A stretch of 64,000 bases of DNA from a virus (lineage: Duplodnaviria; Caudoviricetes): positions 1,275 to 65,274 of the IMG/VR virus record IMGVR_UViG_3300024520_004699. One strand, given 5' to 3'. Made by a program: the position numbers and the translations under genes. Shown piece by piece: positions 6,567-13,887 of the stretch. How positions within the stretch are numbered: position 1 is the stretch's first letter; each line of letters begins with the position of its first letter. The notes beneath the pieces were generated by a model that saw only the letters and a list, made by a program, of their open reading frames with translations, ran no database searches and had not been told where the DNA came from.

Positions 6567-6608
6567 ACGAGAGCCATAGAAGCCGAGGGTGCCATTCCCT
6601 GCGAGCGA
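6567..6608 (+). ncRNA. orphan single TIGR-like unit
   Basis: ACGAGAGCCA-TAGAAGCC-GAGGGTGCCA-TTCCCTGC-GAGCGA: same 10-8-10-8 register as the main array. Confidence 0.7.
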
Positions 6609-6663
6609 TCTTGGTGAGCCGGTGCAGTGCCGCCAAGGCACAAAACGAGAGAAGGAGGAATGC

Positions 6664-7539
6664 ATGTCAAAAATTGCTTACATCGACAAAAACTTCAGAG
6701 ATGAAAGTCTGGGATTGATAGGCCACGCCAACACAATCATTGACGAGTATCAGGCTCAGGGTTTCGATCTGACATTGCGTCAGCTGTACTATCAGTTTGT
6801 TGCCCGGGATCTGATCCCGAACACTCAGCGGTCTTACAAGCGCCTCGGCGGCATCATCAACGATGCCCGTCTCGCCGGTCACATCGACTGGGAGGCCATC
6901 GTGGACCGCACGCGCAACCGGCACACCCATGCGACATGGGATGACCCCGCTCAGATTATCCGGGCGGCGGCCAGCAGCTATAAGGTCGATCTCTGGGAGA
7001 CCCAGATATATCGGCCTGAAGTCTGGATCGAAAAAGAAGCGTTAATCGGCGTGATCGAGGGTGTGTGCAAAGAGTTTCAGGTTCCATATTATGCATGCCG
7101 TGGCTACAACTCACAGTCGCAGCAGTGGCGAGCCGCAGTCAGGGCCGAGGCTCACGAAAAAAACGACCAGCAGCCAATCATCTTTTATTTTGGCGACCAT
7201 GACCCCAGCGGCATGGATATGCCTCGCGATCTGCGGGACAGGTTCAAGCTGTTCATAGGCGGCCATGAGCTGGAGAGGATTGCCCTCAACAAGGATCAGG
7301 TGGATGAGTATTCTCCTCCGCCAAATCCAACCAAGTTGACGGACAGTCGCTCGACTGACTACATCCAAGAACACGGTGACAGTTCATGGGAGCTGGACGC
7401 TCTCGATCCTCCGGTCATCGCCGGGCTGATCCGCAAATGTCTTGAGGGCATAACGGATCCGGGATCTTGGGATGAATCGCTCAAGCGACAGGCGGAGGGG
7501 TGTGAGCTTCTCGACTCTATCGCCAATGAGTATGGATAA
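6664..7539 (+). CDS. Toprim-domain protein (TopoVI-A/Spo11/JetD-like)
   Basis: LTLRQLYYQ winged-helix Tyr motif, WIEKEAL, FGDHDPSG (DxD), RIAL, WELDAL. Confidence 0.7.
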   Translation: MSKIAYIDKNFRDESLGLIGHANTIIDEYQAQGFDLTLRQLYYQFVARDLIPNTQRSYKRLGGIINDARLAGHIDWEAIVDRTRNRHTHATWDDPAQIIRAAASSYKVDLWETQIYRPEVWIEKEALIGVIEGVCKEFQVPYYACRGYNSQSQQWRAAVRAEAHEKNDQQPIIFYFGDHDPSGMDMPRDLRDRFKLFIGGHELERIALNKDQVDEYSPPPNPTKLTDSRSTDYIQEHGDSSWELDALDPPVIAGLIRKCLEGITDPGSWDESLKRQAEGCELLDSIANEYG

Positions 7540-7585
7540 GACGTTACTGTTCTGGCCCACCACCAACCATTGAGTTTCCTCCCAT

Positions 7586-7618
7586 GGTCGGGGCCCTTCG
7601 GGGTCTCGGCCTTTTTTT
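7586..7618 (+). terminator. intrinsic terminator
   Basis: GGTCGGGGCCC-TTCG-GGGTCTCGGCC followed by T7. Confidence 0.8.
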
Positions 7619-7619
7619 G

Positions 7620-7646
7620 TTGCGTAACTCGTCGTTACAATATAGT
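7620..7646 (+). promoter_or_regulatory. putative promoter of the tas/TIGR operon with a GTAAC-N5-GTTAC operator
   Basis: CGTAAC-TCGTC-GTTACA at 7623-7639, overlapping -10-like TACAAT and next to TATAGT, directly after the terminator. Confidence 0.55.
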
Positions 7647-7861
7647 CTTTGAACTGTGTCGCCTATCCGGTTGGATCTCCTGCCGGGTGGCAGCGCCAGA
7701 GAGGCCCGGTTCCCAGCCCCCCAGCACCCGGGCCTCTCCCCGGTGTCACTCCAGTTGGTGCACCACGGGGCCAGAGCGAGCCGTATCTCGCGTCGCTGTC
7801 TTCGCCGATGCGAGGCTCTGGCCCCACTCATAATGATGAACAAATAACAAGGATTGAGCCC

Positions 7862-8767
7862 ATGTATGAAAAATTGAAACTAACCGAGGATCTGAAAAAA
7901 GCCTCACTCGGCCTGAGCCGTGAAGAGGCGAGATTTCTCGTCGACGCCTACTACCAGCTGCAGGATGCAAGGATTCGGGCGGCTGGACAAATCCGAGCAG
8001 TTCTAGACGAAACTCCCGGCATCCTTAGCTGGGTGCAACTTTATGTCGAGAACATCGAAGACGAAATCAAGAAGGCCCTCACAATGTATGCCTCCGGACA
8101 CCCTGTCTGTGAGTGGGCCCAGACAGTGAAGGGCATTGGCCCAGTTTTGAGCGCGGGCTTGGTCGCCCACATCGATATCACCAAGTGTCCAACTGTCGGC
8201 CACATCTGGTCCTTCGCTGGGGTTAACCCCGAACAGGAATGGGGCAAGGGACAGAAGCGCCCCTACAACGCTGACCTCAAAGTGCTGCAATGGAAGATCG
8301 GCGAGAGCTTCGTCCGGTCGGGCGGCGGCGGGATTTACAACGACGTTTATAAAACGCGCAAAGAGCAGGAGATCGCACGCAATCTGAATGGAGATTTTGC
8401 CGATCAGGCGAAGGCCAAGTTGAAGAAGTTCAACATCGGCAAGAACACAGATGCGTATAAATGGTATGCAGGTCGGATCACCCGCAAAGAGGCGGAGCGC
8501 GTTCTCAAGCTGGCGGCTGCCGACAAGGTGGTGAAGCCCAAGCTGGTGAAGGAAGGGAAGGGCCAGCCCATGCTGCCCCCGGCCCATATCCATTCCCGGG
8601 CCAAGCGTTATGCCGTCAAGCTGTTTATGAGCCACTGGCATTTCGTAGCGTATTTTAACCACTACGGAAAGCGTCCGCCGAAGCCATACATCCTCGAACA
8701 TGGCCATGGTCACGTTCATGAAATATTGCCTCCGAACTTCGATGTGAAAAGCAAGAAGGCAGCATAG
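7862..8767 (+). CDS. TasA-like Nop/IS110-related RNA-binding protein (no RuvC or HNH domain)
   Basis: Helical N-terminus (YYQLQDARIRAAGQ), VKGIGPVLSAGL, HIWSFAGV..KGQKRPYNADLK and HIHSRAKRYAVKLF, as in IS110 C-terminal/Nop domains. No DEDD RuvC-like N-terminus. Abuts a 36-nt dual-repeat array. Confidence 0.8.
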   Translation: MYEKLKLTEDLKKASLGLSREEARFLVDAYYQLQDARIRAAGQIRAVLDETPGILSWVQLYVENIEDEIKKALTMYASGHPVCEWAQTVKGIGPVLSAGLVAHIDITKCPTVGHIWSFAGVNPEQEWGKGQKRPYNADLKVLQWKIGESFVRSGGGGIYNDVYKTRKEQEIARNLNGDFADQAKAKLKKFNIGKNTDAYKWYAGRITRKEAERVLKLAAADKVVKPKLVKEGKGQPMLPPAHIHSRAKRYAVKLFMSHWHFVAYFNHYGKRPPKPYILEHGHGHVHEILPPNFDVKSKKAA

Positions 8768-9707
8768 TCGAGCCAATTTGAAAGAGAGCACCAACGGACG
8801 CGAGCGAGCCACACCTACCGAGAGCACCAGAACCCGCGAGCGAGCCATTACTTGTGAGAGCACCACAAACCCGGAGCGAGCCATCCAATGCGAGAGTACC
8901 AGACGAACCGAGCGAGCCACGGCCTTTGAGGGTGCCACATTATTGGAGCGAGCCACACCACTTGAGAGCACCATGTCCTGAGAGCGAGCCATCACGTCGG
9001 AGAGCACCATTTGGGGTGAGCGAGCCAACTCCTCGGAGAGCGCCAGAGAATTTGAGCGAGCCATTGAAGCCGAAAGCACCATGCAGATAGAGCGAGTCAA
9101 GAACCGAGAAAGCGCCATTCCATGTGAGCGAGCCAAGCTTTTCGAGAGCACCAACAGTCGGGAGCGAGTCAAGTCGAACGAGAGTGCCACGCCTATTGAG
9201 CGAGCCAACACATAAGAGAGCACCATCCATTGTGAGCGAGCCACCAGTTCGGAGAGTACCAGAAAATGAGAGCGAGCCACCCGAGACGAGAGCACCACAA
9301 CCCCCGAGCGAGCCACGCGAGTCGAGAGCACCAATATCTAGGAGCGAGCCATGGCCCTTGAGAGCACCATAACAGAAGAGCGAGCCATACGATGAGAGAG
9401 TGCCAAAGCTCATGAGCAAGCCATCCAGTTGGAGAGCACCAACGTAGCTGAGCGAGCCATCGCATCAGAGAGTACCAAAAAGTGTGAGCGAGCCATCAAC
9501 TATGAGAGTACCAATTTCAGGGAGCGAGCCACACATGATGAGAGCGCCACAATGGAGGAGCGAGCCATTTGTTCTGAGAGTACCATCAAAGGTGAGCGAG
9601 CCAGACTGCCGGAGAGCACCATTCGGGACGAGCGAGCCACCAGACCAGAGAGTGCCATTCATGAGGAGCGAGCCAACATCACGGAGAGTACCAAACAATG
9701 AGAGCGA
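8766..9707 (+). ncRNA. TIGR-like dual-repeat guide RNA array, 26 x 36-nt units
   Basis: Exact 36-nt period from 8766 to 9701: GAGCGAGCCA + 8 variable nt + GAGAGYRCCA + 8 variable nt, all spacer pairs different. Confidence 0.9.
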
Positions 9708-10225
9708 ATAAAAAAAACGAGAATGCCGGGCTTGTGCGCAGCTATGTTTATGGGCGGGCTGTAGTGATTGGGATGAAGAAAGAGGACGGCATTATAAGGC
9801 AGGAGGGTCCGTGGAGATACGAGGATACTGGAGAGGAGCGCAGCTCCAAGAAGGTAGATTGGCCCTGCCCGAAGTGCGGCCTCCTGCCCACAGTGGATGG
9901 GGAGGATCCATGCATAGCAAAACTCCCGGGAGTGACGGCTGCATGCTGTGGACACGGCGTCATGAAGGGATACGTAGCGTTTGATAGTGGGATAGTTATT
10001 CGCGGTGAATTTGATCATATAAAAGAGGAAACGGGGGGAGAGCCAGCCCGACGGAGAGTACCAAACAATGAGAGCGAGCCAAAGCGACGAAGAGCACCAG
10101 ATCAGATGAGCGAGCCAGCGCACAAGAGAGTACCAAAGCCCATGAGCGAGCCAGAGGATGAGAGGGTACCAAACAAGAAGAGCGAGCCACCAACTACGAG
10201 AGCACCAAACAATGAGAGCGGCTGA
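9698..10225 (+). CDS. Cys-rich phage protein inserted in the array (C-terminus reads through the second sub-array)
   Basis: CPKCGLLPT..DPCIAKLPGVTAACCGHG motif; ATG lies inside the last spacer of sub-array 1. Confidence 0.6.
   Translation: MRANKKNENAGLVRSYVYGRAVVIGMKKEDGIIRQEGPWRYEDTGEERSSKKVDWPCPKCGLLPTVDGEDPCIAKLPGVTAACCGHGVMKGYVAFDSGIVIRGEFDHIKEETGGEPARRRVPNNESEPKRRRAPDQMSEPAHKRVPKPMSEPEDERVPNKKSEPPTTRAPNNESG
10036..10220 (+). ncRNA. second TIGR-like sub-array, 5 x 36-nt units
   Basis: Units start at 10036, 10072, 10108, 10144 and 10180, with the same repeats. Confidence 0.85.
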
Positions 10226-10424
10226 AGCAAAGACTGTTAATCTGAAGACCAATACGGCCACGCTGGTTGACGGCAAGCAGGTCAGGATTGAGAGGATGTG
10301 GGATAAGAGTGGAAAGCCAGCTCAGGATCCTCGCATGGCCGAGTCGGTGATGGTTACCGGGCGCGAACGCGGCGACTGGGCGATCATCAATCTTGAAACA
10401 TTCAAGGGAGAGGTAGTGCGATGA
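10212..10424 (+). CDS. hypothetical protein starting in the last array spacer
   Basis: ATG within AACAATGA-GAGCG, the same context as the ORF at 9698. Confidence 0.5.
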   Translation: MRAAEAKTVNLKTNTATLVDGKQVRIERMWDKSGKPAQDPRMAESVMVTGRERGDWAIINLETFKGEVVR

Positions 10425-10578
10425 ACATGGGGCAAATGTTGTCCAAGCTCAAGCGGGACAAAGAGATGTCGGATCTCAGGAAGATCATTGCTGAGTGCAA
10501 TGAGCAGCAGGCGCGGATAGACGAGTTACGGAAGCGCCTTAAGGTGAAGCGTGGAGAAAGTTTAATGGAGGCCGTGAG

Positions 10579-10788
10579 ATGAAGGTTGGACGCATGAAGA
10601 TCACCTACGAAAAAATAGGCCAAGCTCTAGGTTTGCCAGAAGGCAATGAGGTAGTCGGGGTGGATGCTCAATCTTTTGAGGGCACAGTAGAGGAGACGAT
10701 TAGCATTCTGGTTTGCGGCAGAGACATGCCTGAGCACCGCGAGGGAGAGGCCATTCAGACTGTTAAGGTGAAAAGGATTGTGGAATGA
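10579..10788 (+). CDS. hypothetical protein
   Basis: GGAGG SD; part of a run of coupled small ORFs. Confidence 0.5.
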   Translation: MKVGRMKITYEKIGQALGLPEGNEVVGVDAQSFEGTVEETISILVCGRDMPEHREGEAIQTVKVKRIVE

Positions 10789-10933
10789 CAGATACAAAGA
10801 TGGTTGTGCGCCATCCACGACTGACTGCCCTGCTCGCTGCCAACAAGGCTCGCTTGCGCGTCATTGCGAAGAGAGGGGCCCGACGCATCCTGCTGGAGCA
10901 CGGGATAGATCCCAGCATACTTGAGAGAGGAGA

Positions 10934-11167
10934 ATGAAGGTGGGCGAGGCAATCCATATGAGGCACGCATATGTCATCCTAAATGAGTGGGGCAGTGTGT
11001 GGACTCATGAATCTTTTGACACCGTCCAAGCTGCTTGGAGCAAGCTCGAAGAGTTCTTCGGCAAGAGGCTGGATAGAGATAGGTTCAGCGTGAAGAGGGG
11101 CGAAATAGGGGTCACGATTGAAGAGGTCTGTGAGACCTGCGGCCAGCCACTTGGAGAGGACAAATGA
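10934..11167 (+). CDS. hypothetical protein
   Basis: AGGAG SD; C-terminal CxxC. Confidence 0.5.
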   Translation: MKVGEAIHMRHAYVILNEWGSVWTHESFDTVQAAWSKLEEFFGKRLDRDRFSVKRGEIGVTIEEVCETCGQPLGEDK

Positions 11168-11415
11168 AAGGAACAGCCATAACTGCAGCAGAGCTTCAGA
11201 AAATGACATTCAAGAAGAACCCGTGGGGTAAGGATCATGAGGCCCTAGCCAAAACTGTCAGGGCAAATTTTGGCAACGTCCACAATGACTACATACGAGC
11301 TGTAGTCTGGCGCTATATCGATCAGAGCAAGGTGTCGCTCAAGGAGGCCCGGCGCTGTGTTCGCCAAGGGTATTCCTCACCAGCTGCAGCAAGGCATGAC
11401 GGTGTCTTGACGTAA
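11164..11415 (+). CDS. hypothetical protein
   Basis: ATGA-coupled ORF. Confidence 0.5.
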   Translation: MKGTAITAAELQKMTFKKNPWGKDHEALAKTVRANFGNVHNDYIRAVVWRYIDQSKVSLKEARRCVRQGYSSPAAARHDGVLT

Positions 11416-11441
11416 TGACCTGAAGTCTCCATTCTTGAGCG

Positions 11442-11951
11442 ATGAAAAATCGAACCAATCGAACGCAAAAGCCTAAGACAATTAGCCGAAGAATGAAATC
11501 TGCTGTTGTCGAGAGACGGGCCAAGAAGCGCAAGTTCCTAGCCCTACTGGAAGACGGCAGCTCAGTCAGGGATGCACGTAAGGAAATCAAGGTCGCAGTC
11601 TCTACGGTTTATGCGTGGTACAAGAACGATCCTGAGTTCGCTGAGATGTGGGACCAGTACATGGTCCTTGGCGATATGAACAATCAGGTGGCTGCCAATC
11701 GTCGCGGTGCCAAACAATCCGACAAACTCCTCATTTTCATGCTGAAGAAGCGCATGCCTGACCAGTATGGAGACAAGGAAGATCGCGGCGGCGACACTAC
11801 GCTATTCAATATGCAGCAGATCAACATTGCGAGCCTATCTGATGTCCAGCTTACCGAGCTTATCTCCAGACTCGACGACCGAATGGCTCAAGAACAAAGC
11901 CATATCCGAACAATCGACGCGACACCGTCAGATAACCAAGAAGTTCGGTAG
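11442..11951 (+). CDS. terS: terminase small subunit
   Basis: HTH (STVYAWYKNDPEFAEMWD), SDKLLIFMLK motif; directly upstream of TerL. Confidence 0.75.
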   Translation: MKNRTNRTQKPKTISRRMKSAVVERRAKKRKFLALLEDGSSVRDARKEIKVAVSTVYAWYKNDPEFAEMWDQYMVLGDMNNQVAANRRGAKQSDKLLIFMLKKRMPDQYGDKEDRGGDTTLFNMQQINIASLSDVQLTELISRLDDRMAQEQSHIRTIDATPSDNQEVR

Positions 11952-13887
11952 ATGGGATGGAGATCCTGCCGGGTTCATTGAGCAGGAGCTTCTCGGTTTC
12001 ATCTGGTCGAAGCAGAGAGAGATCTGCCAGAGCGTCGTCGACCACCGCTTCACATCAGTGAAGTCCTGCCACTCGGTTGGCAAGACAGCTATCGCGGCGA
12101 GACTGGGGGCATGGTGGTTATCGGTTCATCGACCCGGAGACGCCTTCCTCGTGACGTCAGCTCCGACTGGCTATCAGGTCAAGGCTCTGCTCTGGCGAGA
12201 GATCAACAACATTCACAAGCTGGGCGGTTTGCCCGGCAGGACCAACACGACAGAGTGGCTGTTCGGAAATGAGCTGGTGGGCTTTGGCCGGTCAGTGCGA
12301 GACGCGGATCCGACAGCATTCCAAGGCATCCATGCACCGTTCGTGCTTGTCATCCTCGACGAGGCTTGTGGCATCACGTCAGCCATCTGGACAGCAGCCG
12401 AGACGCTGGTGGCCAACGACGACAGCCGCTTCCTCGCCATCGGCAACCCGGACGATCCGGCGACAGAGTTCGGCAACTCGTGCAGGCCGGGCACCGGGTA
12501 CAACGTCATTCAAATTAGCGCCTATGAATCTCCCAACTTCACCGACGAAGAGTGCCCCGACTGGCTGAAGCAGCAGCTGGTGGGCGAGCAGTGGGTGGAG
12601 GAGCGGGCGAAAAGATGGGGTGAGGAATCACCACGGTATCTCTCTAAGGTCATGGGAGACTTCCCAGAACAATCTACAGACGGCTTGATCCCCATCACGG
12701 CAGTCAGGGAAGCTGTGGCCCGTGAGCTGGAGGCAGTGGGCCCTGTCGAGCTGGGCGTGGACGTGGCTCGCTTTGGTCTGGACAAGACCGTCATCTACAA
12801 GAGGCAGGGGCCGGTGGCGAGAATATACAAGAGAATGACCAAGCGCGACACCATGTGGGTGACGGGTGAGGTGGTCAAGGCCATCAAAGATACCGATGCC
12901 ACGCTGGTCAAGATTGATGACATCGGTCTTGGCGGCGGAGTAGTTGATAGGCTTAGGGAGCTGCGTTTCGAGGGCGAGTTTGACGCAGAGATTGCTGCCA
13001 TCAATGTTGGCGAGCAACCTATCACGAGCGCAGCCGATGAGGTTTTTTACAATAAGCGAATAGAGCTGAACTGGATGATGCGGGACAGGTTTGTCGAAGG
13101 GGATATAGACATCGAGGATGACGATGATCTGCAGGTCCAGATCGTCAACATGAAATACAAGCACACCAGCCGGGGCAAGCTGATCCTTCAGAGCAAGGCC
13201 GACATGAAGAAGGACACCAAGCTGCCCAGTCCTGATGAGTGGGATGCCCTCGTATTAGCTTTCACACCGAGGGAATATGGTGTAGATATGGCCTTCATGG
13301 AGCAGGCTGAAACATTCACGTATGACCCATTCTCCATCCCAGAGTTCTGGCCCCGGGTTTATGCCATCGACATCAACGGCAACGAGATGTCAGTCGTGTG
13401 GGGGTCATGGGACACAGAGAGCGAGACCGTCTATCTGTACGACGAGTTCATATCCACTCGCCCGGACATTTCAATCAATGCATCATCGATCCGCAAGCGG
13501 AAGGCGTGGGTGCCCGGCCTGTTTTACATGCGCGACCATGGCCGGTCGGAAGAGCAGGGGCAGGGCATGATCAATGCGTTGCTCGACGAGGGTCTCGATA
13601 TCTTTGAGAAGGAAGAGGACATGGAGATCGCCGTCAACGAGATGGTGGCGAGGCTGACAAACCAGACGCTCAAGGTGTCGAAGAGAATGGAGCGCTGGAT
13701 GGACCAGTACCATAAATACAAGCGCGACAAGAAGGGTGAGCTGGTCCAAGAGAGGGATGGCCTGCTCAGGGCATCGGGGCTGATAGTGCAAGGAGGTCAG
13801 TTCGTAGCCACTACGGCTGATATACTAAACGCGAAACCAGACGAGGTAGCCAGTGACGACACAAAAAACCCATCGACCGGATATTGA
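11842..13887 (+). CDS. terL: terminase large subunit with an extra C-terminal nuclease-like domain
   Basis: Walker A-like SCHSVGKT, Walker B VILDEA, IGNP, RNase H-like LGVDVAR and SPDEWDALVLAF. Start uncertain. Confidence 0.9.
   Translation: MSSLPSLSPDSTTEWLKNKAISEQSTRHRQITKKFGRWDGDPAGFIEQELLGFIWSKQREICQSVVDHRFTSVKSCHSVGKTAIAARLGAWWLSVHRPGDAFLVTSAPTGYQVKALLWREINNIHKLGGLPGRTNTTEWLFGNELVGFGRSVRDADPTAFQGIHAPFVLVILDEACGITSAIWTAAETLVANDDSRFLAIGNPDDPATEFGNSCRPGTGYNVIQISAYESPNFTDEECPDWLKQQLVGEQWVEERAKRWGEESPRYLSKVMGDFPEQSTDGLIPITAVREAVARELEAVGPVELGVDVARFGLDKTVIYKRQGPVARIYKRMTKRDTMWVTGEVVKAIKDTDATLVKIDDIGLGGGVVDRLRELRFEGEFDAEIAAINVGEQPITSAADEVFYNKRIELNWMMRDRFVEGDIDIEDDDDLQVQIVNMKYKHTSRGKLILQSKADMKKDTKLPSPDEWDALVLAFTPREYGVDMAFMEQAETFTYDPFSIPEFWPRVYAIDINGNEMSVVWGSWDTESETVYLYDEFISTRPDISINASSIRKRKAWVPGLFYMRDHGRSEEQGQGMINALLDEGLDIFEKEEDMEIAVNEMVARLTNQTLKVSKRMERWMDQYHKYKRDKKGELVQERDGLLRASGLIVQGGQFVATTADILNAKPDEVASDDTKNPSTGY

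What the first reader, a model, noticed from the sequence alone, without database searches (positions are those of the whole stretch)
9681..10225. Protein-coding gene embedded in the guide array between 27-bp direct repeats
Seen: ACGGAGAGTACCAAACAATGAGAGCGA occurs identically at 9681-9707 and 10051-10077, 370 bp apart. Between them lies a Cys-rich ORF (CPKCG..ACCGHG). Its ATG (9698) is inside spacer AACAATGA, and its frame continues without a stop through the second sub-array. Inference: a gene cassette was inserted by recombination at an array unit, so the array may also act as a gene-capture or shuffling site, or it expanded around a resident gene.
Basis: partly seen in the sequence, partly recalled or inferred. 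Interest (0 to 1): 0.8.

Follow-up and report, generated by a model that had tools for sequence, protein, structure and literature searches.

The report
Phage gene wedged inside TIGR array
A small zinc-binding-type phage gene sits between two blocks of a TIGR guide-RNA array, borrowing its start codon from the last guide and running on into the next block; this tight packing of genes and guides is usual for this array family rather than a sign of a gene-capture machine.

Summary
The 27-mer is exact at 9681-9707 and 10051-10077. ORF 9698-10225 is a real gene, with 41 complete homologues (median 110 aa) in other phage contigs.

The locus is a dual-repeat TIGR-TasA system on a 65-kb marine phage contig. 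It has tasA, 26 units, gene X, 5 units, then gene Y. Both sub-arrays have the family's canonical half-edge ends, AGCCA...GAGCG.

The 27-mer is the 3' part of two guide units that share spacer B, AACAATGA. A third copy starts gene Y.

X has no stop of its own. Its 63-aa array-encoded tail is unique, modelled without secondary structure, and statistically unremarkable (9 of 22 control windows are also open).

Among 80 IMG/VR loci with the same repeats:
- 16 of 29 inter-sub-array gaps hold tasA, and several hold small genes.
- Stop codons overlap AGCCA at 28 of 46 boundaries where an ORF is still open.
- Starts abut GAGCG.
- 22 of 76 arrays carry duplicated spacers.

So this is recombination within a tightly interleaved operon, not a dedicated capture site. 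No close relative or deletion allele was available. This scan has noted genes wedged in TIGR arrays on other DNA (e1-5327774, e1-6026266, e1-6112045).

The parts
6572..6607 (+). Orphan single TIGR unit (AGCCA, spacer TAGAAGCC, loop GAGGGTGCCA, spacer TTCCCTGC, GAGCG) in the leader of the Toprim/TopoVI-A-like gene
Evidence: Read. It has the same half-edge boundaries as the arrays.
7865..8767 (+). tasA: a nuclease-less Tas (Nop-domain) protein of 300 aa
   Evidence: PHROG 4285, E 4.9e-43, and Pfam Transposase_20. PDB 9mty_A, E 3e-18, aligned to chain residues 123-322 only; TasH 21kl_A, E 8.8e-9.
8771..9706 (+). Sub-array 1: 26 units of 36 nt (half-edge AGCCA, 8-nt spacer A, loop GAGAGYRCCA, 8-nt spacer B, half-edge GAGCG)
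   Evidence: Register table. One search found 31 pattern matches in the window against 0.02 expected. One search gives the boundary profile.
9681..9707 (+). 27-mer copy 1: the 3' part of the last unit (26) of sub-array 1. It contains the ATG of gene X.
9698..10225 (+). Gene X ORF (175 aa with the tail). Residues about 1-115 (to 10043) are homologous to a viral family of small Cys/His proteins. Residues about 116-175 are translated array.
10041..10220 (+). Sub-array 2: 5 units of 36 nt, lying inside the X reading frame
10051..10077 (+). 27-mer copy 2: the 3' part of the first unit (27) of sub-array 2
10198..10220 (+). Third copy of loop + AACAATGA + GAGCG (loop variant with C): the last unit (31), which contains the ATG of gene Y
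10212..10424 (+). Gene Y (70 aa, MRAAEAK...). It is the first of a run of small ORFs with 4-nt stop/start overlaps that leads to the small terminase gene at 11442.

Best explanation
The locus is one co-oriented unit of a marine phage: tasA, a 26-unit dual-repeat TIGR array, gene X, a 5-unit TIGR array, gene Y, a run of small genes, then the terminase.

Gene X encodes a small Cys/His (probably zinc-binding) protein of a widespread viral family of unknown function. It came to lie between two canonical sub-arrays through recombination among array units. The 27-mer is the shared 3' part (3 nt of spacer A, the loop, spacer B, the half-edge) of guide units 26 and 27. It is a partial-unit duplication of a kind common in this array family, not a target-site duplication.

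The terminal unit (loop, AACAATGA, GAGCG) serves twice, as the last guide and as the translation start region (ATG AGA GCG) of the downstream gene. The same module heads gene Y.

X lost or never had its own stop. In this family a stop normally overlaps the AGCCA half-edge. X therefore reads through five guide units to the first stop after the array. This tail is most likely an unselected by-product.

Inferred, not shown:
- The array and the genes are co-transcribed.
- TasA-dependent cutting at full edge repeats would leave X mRNA with guide 26 as its leader. It would also cut the mRNA at the first full edge of sub-array 2, before any stop codon. X output would then depend on how completely the arrays are processed.
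For: TIGR identity:
- Units are 10+8+10+8 nt; 31 units against 0.02 expected.
- tasA is adjacent, with PDB hits to TasR and TasH chains.
- The description matches the passages of Faure 2025 that I read.

X is a real gene:
- 6 proteins in the word search, including its own, and 12 phage records.
- 43 IMG/VR loci, of which 41 give complete ORFs with a median of 110 aa.
- C57, C60, D70, C72, C83, C84 and H86 are invariant in 32 aligned sequences.
- The AlphaFold model has block-mean pLDDT 75-93 for residues 11-110. The tail has 48-65 and no secondary structure.

Boundaries:
- Across 69 array 3' ends, edge positions 1-5 are 86-94% conserved and position 6 drops to 39%.
- Across 64 array 5' ends, positions 6-10 are 81-97% conserved and positions 1-5 are at 25-41%.
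- The window's 9702-9706 (GAGCG) and 10041-10045 (AGCCA) fit this exactly.

Family habit:
- 16 of 29 gaps between sub-arrays hold tasA.
- Small non-tas genes lie in the gaps of L059, L125 and L095.
- An ATG-ORF of at least 40 codons starts within -8 to +30 nt of the 3' half-edge at 38 of 66 ends, against 392 of 1501 random control positions.
- The stop codon overlaps AGCCA in 28 of 46 boundaries where an ORF is still open, against 8 of 1058 control positions with an open ORF.

Duplication is common: 22 of 76 arrays hold exactly duplicated spacers.

Missing stop: the L016 homologue ends GGT GAA TGA where the window has GGA GAG CCA.

The tail is not special: 9 of 22 five-unit windows of sub-array 1 are open in that frame.

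No terminator-like site lies on the + strand between 8036 and 12000; a strong one lies at 7586-7611.

The start region of X is predicted to be unstructured; 199 of 200 shuffles fold at least as well.

X has the genome's own composition, GC 0.533 against 0.535.
Against: - No close relative was found, so the order of events (insertion against array growth) is not shown.
- The identity block stops inside spacer A: 4 differences in 5 nt, then 27 identities. That looks like a recombination edge and would also fit a Campbell-type insertion of a circle carrying X plus a unit.
- The control uses random positions, not gene boundaries, so part of the enrichment may be ordinary phage gene packing.
- Some of the 11 ORFs that read at least 29 nt into arrays may not be genes.
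- Neither transcription nor processing was observed.
- Faure 2025 (passage read) reports that minimal arrays were processed only with full edge repeats. The half-edges at 9702-9706 and 10041-10045 may therefore not be cut at all.
- The Shine-Dalgarno-like GGAG lies 11 nt before the ATG, which is rather far.
Confidence: 0.6

Rival explanations
1. The arrays grew around resident genes. X and Y were already neighbours downstream of tasA. TIGR units were seeded in the intergenic gaps (compare the orphan unit at 6572-6607) and expanded by unit duplication. In the process they overwrote X's start and stop regions.
For: Single or partial units sit in two other leaders of this phage: 6572-6607 and 7753-7783. 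Both sub-arrays have complete canonical boundaries. Unit duplication is frequent in the family. X has native composition. Sub-array 2 is short (5 units), and its first and last spacer B are identical.
Against: X occurs in 0 of 80 related array loci, and its homologues sit in array-free contexts in 43 of 43 loci. So the association is recent or unique. X lacks its own stop exactly at the boundary, which fits a junction formed by recombination as well. No mechanism for seeding units is known; Faure 2025 calls array expansion an enigma (passage read).
Confidence: 0.25
2. Gene capture at the array. A circular or linear cassette carrying X plus one unit integrated by homologous recombination at the matching unit. 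That left 27-bp direct repeats, and the array acts as a recurrent landing or shuffling site for accessory genes.
For: Exact 27-bp direct repeats flank X. The identity block ends abruptly inside spacer A. Different small genes occupy the gaps between sub-arrays in other phages: L059/L125 and L095. X is lineage-specific.
Against: No flanking spacer identity was seen at the embedded genes of L059 and L125 (read from the output). Spacer duplicates also occur without any gene between them. No joint that skips the segment was seen in the contigs of 4 runs, though contigs drop rare variants. No recombinase is linked to the site in the region I annotated, 6589-13887.
Confidence: 0.1
3. The 175-aa fusion is the functional product. 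The array-encoded, Pro/Arg/Glu/Ser-rich periodic tail has a role, for example binding TasA or nucleic acid.
For: The frame is open through all five units and stops 5 nt after the array. The identical 175-aa protein is on record from 3 contigs. The Xu 2026 preprint reports in-frame tigRNA units inside tas genes.
Against: 9 of 22 control windows are equally open. None of the 41 complete homologues has such a tail. The tail is modelled without structure at pLDDT 48-65. Any cut at the full edge 10072-10081 would leave an mRNA with no stop codon.
Confidence: 0.08
4. Assembly artefact: the repeat caused a false join.
For: Arrays break contigs in runs X3 to X5.
Against: Contigs from X3 and X4, which are not flagged as a possible source, cross both junctions with at least 64 nt on each side and no differences.
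Confidence: 0.02

Closest known systems
Dual-repeat TIGR-TasA systems (Faure et al. 2025, Science, PMC12045711; passages and section 6 read)
   Same: A Nop-domain Tas protein without a nuclease lies next to the array. Two alternating 10-nt repeats give 36-nt units with two short spacers. [quoted passage not shown] The system is phage-borne.
   Different: Spacers are 8 nt rather than the usual 9. No terminator-like site follows either sub-array. The array is split by a non-tas gene. The last unit of each sub-array holds the start codon of the next gene.
Intragenic tigRNA units inside tas coding sequences (Xu et al. 2026 preprint, 10.64898/2026.09.09.750476; sections 5 and 11 and found passages read)
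   Same: Guide units lie in frame inside a protein-coding ORF. The authors suggest that guide maturation and translation are linked.
   Different: There the host gene is tas itself, mostly with stem-loop arrays, and the units map to loops of a folded protein. Here five dual-repeat units form a C-terminal extension of an unrelated accessory gene that lacks its own stop.
tasParB-tasA operons with arrays upstream, downstream and between the two genes (Faure et al. 2025, methods passage read)
   Same: Arrays are interleaved with genes of one operon.
   Different: The interleaved gene there is a conserved partner (ParB-like). X is a lineage-specific small Cys/His protein absent from 80 of 80 related array loci.
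Earlier notes of this scan on other phages (e1-5327774, e1-6026266, e1-6112045; AI notes)
   Same: Cargo genes are wedged between TIGR mini-arrays, with start and stop codons shared with half-repeats.
   Different: Those are other genomes. Here there is also an exact 27-nt partial-unit duplication flanking the gene, and a 63-aa array-encoded tail.

Membership tests
Dual-repeat TIGR-Tas system | A Tas protein with a Nop domain encoded next to the array | tested here: met
   The 7865-8767 product hits PDB 9mty_A (E 3e-18) and TasH 21kl_A (E 8.8e-9). It also hits PHROG 4285 (E 4.9e-43) and Pfam Transposase_20.
Dual-repeat TIGR-Tas system | Two distinct alternating 8-12-nt repeats separated by short spacers, giving 36-nt units | tested here: met
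   Edge GAGCGAGCCA and loop GAGAGYRCCA with 8-nt spacers; 31 units against 0.02 expected.
Dual-repeat TIGR-Tas system | [quoted passage not shown] | tested here: met
   Both sub-arrays run from AGCCA to GAGCG. The family profile has the same break point.
Dual-repeat TIGR-Tas system | A rho-independent terminator after the array (described as typical) | tested here: not met
   No terminator-like site on the + strand between 8036 and 12000. ORFs start inside the last units.
Dual-repeat TIGR-Tas system | Transcription and processing into 36-nt tigRNAs bound by Tas | not testable with these tools
   No RNA holder is listed for this DNA.
TasA subtype (no nuclease domain) | No N-terminal RuvC or HNH domain | tested here: met
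   The 300-aa product aligns only to residues 123-322 of the 331-aa chain 9mty_A. No nuclease family appears in Pfam or PHROGs. The ORF could start further upstream (TTG at 7649), but that stretch gave no domain hit.
Viral small Cys/His protein family (unnamed; X homologues) | The conserved CxxC...D.C...CCGHG pattern in a protein of about 90-135 aa | tested here: met
   C57, C60, D70, C72, C83, C84, G85, H86 and G87 are invariant in 32 sequences. The length criterion is met only without the tail.
Mobile gene cassette with a dedicated recombination site (integron-like) | The same site occupied by different genes, or empty, in relatives; a linked site-specific recombinase | tested here: inconclusive
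   No close relative was available. No recombinase family was found among the products I scanned at 6589-13887. The rest of the window was not scanned.

The most novel reading that the evidence does not exclude
The terminal TIGR unit is a cis-acting control module. TasA binds or cuts the guide that carries the start codon of the downstream gene (X, Y, and tasA itself in other phages), and cuts inside X's stop-less reading frame. Accumulation of the guide-binding protein would then switch flanking phage genes off or on after transcription. On this reading TIGR arrays are operon regulators as well as sources of trans-acting guides, and half-unit shuffling (the same spacer B with different spacer A) is how new guides and new gene junctions arise.
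Probability: 0.15. Interest if true: 0.7.

Novelty: new variant of a known kind. Interest (0 to 1): 0.42.

Why it matters
TIGR-Tas systems were described only in 2025, and how their arrays arise, grow and are expressed is an open question. Faure 2025 calls array expansion an enigma (passage read).

This locus, with 80 related loci, gives three concrete handles:
- **Functional unit.** It is delimited in the DNA as AGCCA...GAGCG, which matches the published mid-edge processing.
- **Packing.** Genes are packed against these half-edges, with stop and start codons overlapping them. Guide maturation and translation of neighbouring genes must therefore interact.
- **Duplication.** Exact duplicates of units and half-units, including this 27-mer, show that recombination between the 10-nt repeats reshuffles spacer halves.

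None of this changes the kind of system. It refines how the system is built into phage operons. Annotation pipelines should also note that ORFs next to such arrays can carry spurious array-encoded extensions.

Tried and rejected
**Relatives and alleles**
- blastn of 9600-10450 against the phage records gave no match.
- An exact scan of IMG/VR for the junction (loop + AACAATGA + GAGCG) gave 0 stretches.
- TasA-based locus searches found only distant relatives: 6 loci at 42-49% identity in IMG/VR and 19 loci at 32-55% in metagenomes.
The 3 contigs on record with the identical 175-aa protein could not be fetched.

**Sequencing runs**
- No RNA holder is listed.
- Contigs of 4 runs were laid. No joint, loose end or other letter was seen. 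Parts without cover in X3 to X5 say nothing. Contigs cannot show rare deletion alleles or circles.
- All runs are seawater metagenomes of 2018-2019 and may be one campaign.

**Self-targets**
- All 31 units were tried in 4 arrangements with gaps of 0-2 nt and at most 1 mismatch against the window outside the arrays. There were 0 hits, and 0 in shuffled controls.
- The orphan unit was entered one base out of register in that script, so it was not validly tested.

**Function of X**
- Pfam gave only a sub-threshold low-complexity hit to the tail. PHROGs gave none.
- Foldseek against PDB gave no match at E <= 0.001. VIA-align wide gave a best Z of 3.3 over 48 residues.
- The ESM Atlas gave only unnamed viral clusters of 87-102 aa.

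**Other checks**
- Pfam on the conserved 167-169-aa gene that follows arrays in L069, L106 and L119 gave nothing.
- GC content gives no sign of foreign origin for X.
- No complex prediction was attempted. No claim of binding is made.
- Paper searches and the passages I read in PMC12045711, 10.64898/2026.09.09.750476 and 10.64898/2026.08.11.744272 gave no description of non-tas genes sharing start or stop codons with array half-repeats. Supplements were not seen and may show such loci.

Full report
**What is there**

The window is nearly all of a 65,274-base IMG/VR phage record. The same DNA is held by seawater metagenome runs.

A strong terminator-like hairpin lies at 7586-7611. Downstream of it, all on the + strand, come:
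- a 300-aa Tas protein gene (7865-8767);
- a periodic array;
- ORF 9698-10225;
- more array;
- ORF 10212-10424;
- five further small ORFs with 4-nt stop/start overlaps;
- the terminase genes.

The Tas product matches PHROG 4285 (E 4.9e-43). It also matches the solved chains 9mty_A (E 3e-18, chain residues 123-322 only) and TasH 21kl_A (E 8.8e-9). It is therefore a nuclease-less TasA.

Printed in 18-nt register, the array alternates GAGCGAGCCA (edge) and GAGAGYRCCA (loop) with 8-nt spacers. There are 31 units against 0.02 expected by chance. This fits the dual-repeat TIGR arrays of Faure et al. 2025 (PMC12045711; passages and section 6 read).

**The observation**

The 27-mer is exact at 9681-9707 and 10051-10077, and no shuffle gave a match. 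It consists of the last 3 nt of a spacer A, a loop repeat (T variant), spacer B AACAATGA, and GAGCGA.

Of the 62 spacers, only AACAATGA recurs. It occurs three times, at 9694, 10064 and 10208, against 0.035 identical pairs expected. The first and third copies lie in the last unit of each sub-array and supply the ATG of the next ORF. Both ORFs begin ATG AGA GCG.

Contigs of two runs that are not flagged as the source cross both junctions without a difference (X3: 9466-9822 and 9798-10564; X4: 9952-10105). The arrangement is therefore not an artefact of one assembly. No alternative joint was seen, but contigs cannot show rare forms.

**Gene X**

The core of the ORF has homologues:
- 12 phage records (Vibrio and Nitrincola phages among them);
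- five proteins of 89-107 aa besides its own;
- 43 IMG/VR loci.

Of 41 complete homologous ORFs, the median length is 110 aa, with a median of 28 residues after the CCGHG motif. The window has 88. One locus (L057) was cut at the contig end and one (L058) lacked a stop; both were left out of the length statistics.

C57, C60, D70, C72, C83, C84 and H86 are invariant in 32 aligned sequences. That suggests a metal site.

No named family or fold was found. The model is confident for residues 11-110. The tail is modelled without secondary structure.

The closest homologue (L016) ends GGT GAA TGA where the window reads GGA GAG CCA. X-derived DNA therefore stops at about 10042-10043, and X has no stop of its own.

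**The open tail is not evidence of selection**

In the same relative frame, 22 of 26 units of sub-array 1 are stop-free. Nine of 22 five-unit windows are open.

**The family context changes the reading**

An exact scan of IMG/VR for edge-spacer-loop-spacer-edge found 94 stretches, returned as 80 loci. Some contigs give several loci, and a few loci are near-identical. My repeat finder (at most 1 mismatch per repeat, at least 3 repeats) found arrays in all 80.

*Boundaries.*
- At 69 distinct 3' ends, edge positions 1-5 (GAGCG) are 86-94% conserved and position 6 falls to 39%.
- At 64 distinct 5' ends, positions 6-10 (AGCCA) are 81-97% conserved and positions 1-5 are at 25-41%.
- The unit kept by selection is thus AGCCA, 8 nt, loop, 8 nt, GAGCG, which is 36 nt. 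This matches the published mature tigRNA that runs from mid-edge to mid-edge.
- Both sub-arrays of the window (8771-9706 and 10041-10220) have exactly these ends, so each is a complete array by the family's rule.

*Genes between sub-arrays.*
- Of 29 gaps between sub-arrays on one strand, 16 hold a tasA homologue and one (the window) holds X.
- The other 12 range from 80 nt to 7.6 kb.
- Of these I read L059, L125, L095, L094 and L065.
- L059 and L125 share a small coiled-coil-type gene starting MSNMK. L095 has small ORFs in two gaps.
- L067 and L131 were not read.

*Starts.*
- At 38 of 66 distinct 3' ends, an ATG-ORF of at least 40 codons starts within -8 to +30 nt of the half-edge, against 392 of 1501 random positions.
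- The mode is at -2 (AT|GAGCG, 7 cases). The window's two starts are at -4.
- The control is random positions, not gene boundaries.

*Stops.*
- Of 85 distinct 5' boundaries, 46 have an ATG-ORF of at least 50 codons still open at the boundary, and 25 of these are Tas-like.
- In 28 of the 46, the stop codon overlaps the first one or two bases of AGCCA, against 8 of 1058 control positions with an open ORF.
- Eleven ORFs read at least 29 nt into the array, the window's X (185 nt) among them. Apart from X and L059, I did not verify that these eleven are genes.
- X's GAG codon sits in the same phase in which 8 other boundaries have TAG|CCA.

*Duplicates.*
- 22 of 76 distinct arrays hold exactly duplicated 8-nt spacers.
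- For one of the 22 (L077) the only duplicate is a mis-registered piece of repeat.
- Some are whole units (L062 across tasA; L090, L101, L106, L114, L135).
- Many involve one spacer only (for example L073, where an internal spacer B equals the terminal one; also L122 and L129).

The window's 27-mer is one more such partial-unit duplicate.

**History**

X homologues occur in 0 of 80 related array loci, and this array type occurs in 0 of 43 X loci. The association is therefore specific to this lineage. X has the genome's own GC content.

The identity block ends abruptly inside spacer A: ACATC against GCCCG, followed by 27 identities. That points to a recombination edge rather than drift.

I favour recombination among units that placed or trapped X between two canonical sub-arrays (0.6). 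Growth of arrays around resident genes remains possible (0.25). It is helped by the orphan unit at 6572-6607 (lead from e1-6250532) and the partial unit at 7753-7783 in the tasA leader.

**Mechanism, shown and inferred**

Shown:
- The start codons of X and Y lie inside guide units.
- X has no stop before the array.
- No terminator-like site separates tasA, the arrays and the genes.
- X's start region is predicted to be unstructured.

Inferred:
- The locus is one transcript.
- If Tas cuts only at full edge repeats, as Faure's minimal-array result suggests (a point also made in note e1-6026266), the half-edges spare the start codons. X mRNA would then begin at about 9671 with guide 26 as its leader.
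- The first full edge of sub-array 2 (10072-10081) lies inside X's frame. A processed X mRNA would therefore lack a stop codon.
- X would be made as a full product only from unprocessed transcripts.

The Xu et al. 2026 preprint (sections 5 and 11 read) reports arrays on both sides of tas and in-frame units inside tas. It suggests a link between maturation and translation. The present case extends that layout to an unrelated accessory gene.

**Verdict**

The system is a known kind (TIGR-TasA) in a layout that the papers I read do not describe. This scan has already met that layout on other phages.

Noticed in passing
window 6572-6607: A single complete TIGR unit with canonical half-edges sits in the leader of the Toprim/TopoVI-A-like gene (PHROG 6247), 2.2 kb upstream of the array. 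Its loop variant GAGGGTGCCA also occurs at 8928.
   Followed up: partly
window 7753-7825: The tasA leader holds a partial unit (GTGCACCA, CGGGGCCA, GAGCGAGCC). A perfect 11-nt inverted repeat, GGGGCCAGAGC (7767-7777) with GCTCTGGCCCC (7815-7825), overlaps it.
   Followed up: no
L059-L138 (IMG/VR loci with the same repeats): The stop codon of the upstream ORF (often tasA) overlaps the first 1-2 bases of the AGCCA half-edge in 28 of 46 boundaries where an ORF is still open. The control figure is 8 of 1058.
   Followed up: yes
L059-L138 and the window: Exact duplicates of single spacers (half units) and of whole units occur in 22 of 76 arrays, some across an embedded tasA (L062, L096, L137). This suggests recombination in the 10-nt repeats reshuffles spacer halves.
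   Followed up: partly
L069, L085, L092, L106, L119 (just after the arrays): A conserved gene of about 167-169 aa (N-terminus ...NPFEQLAAEQM...) follows the array in five loci. By my reading of the output, its start codon lies inside the terminal spacer B each time, although the spacers differ. Three were scanned against Pfam, with no family found.
   Followed up: partly
L059 1416-1697 and L125 1663-2042: A homologous small coiled-coil-type gene (MSNMK...) lies between two sub-arrays in two different phage contigs. In L059 its frame runs 29 nt into the next sub-array.
   Followed up: partly
window 10421-11415: Five small ORFs are chained by 4-nt ATGA-type overlaps between gene Y and the small terminase gene (11442-11951). 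The arrays therefore sit at the head of what looks like the packaging operon.
   Followed up: no
window 9249-9275: A unit with spacer B GAAAATGA differs from the 27-mer by 3 bases and also carries an ATG in the same register.
   Followed up: no
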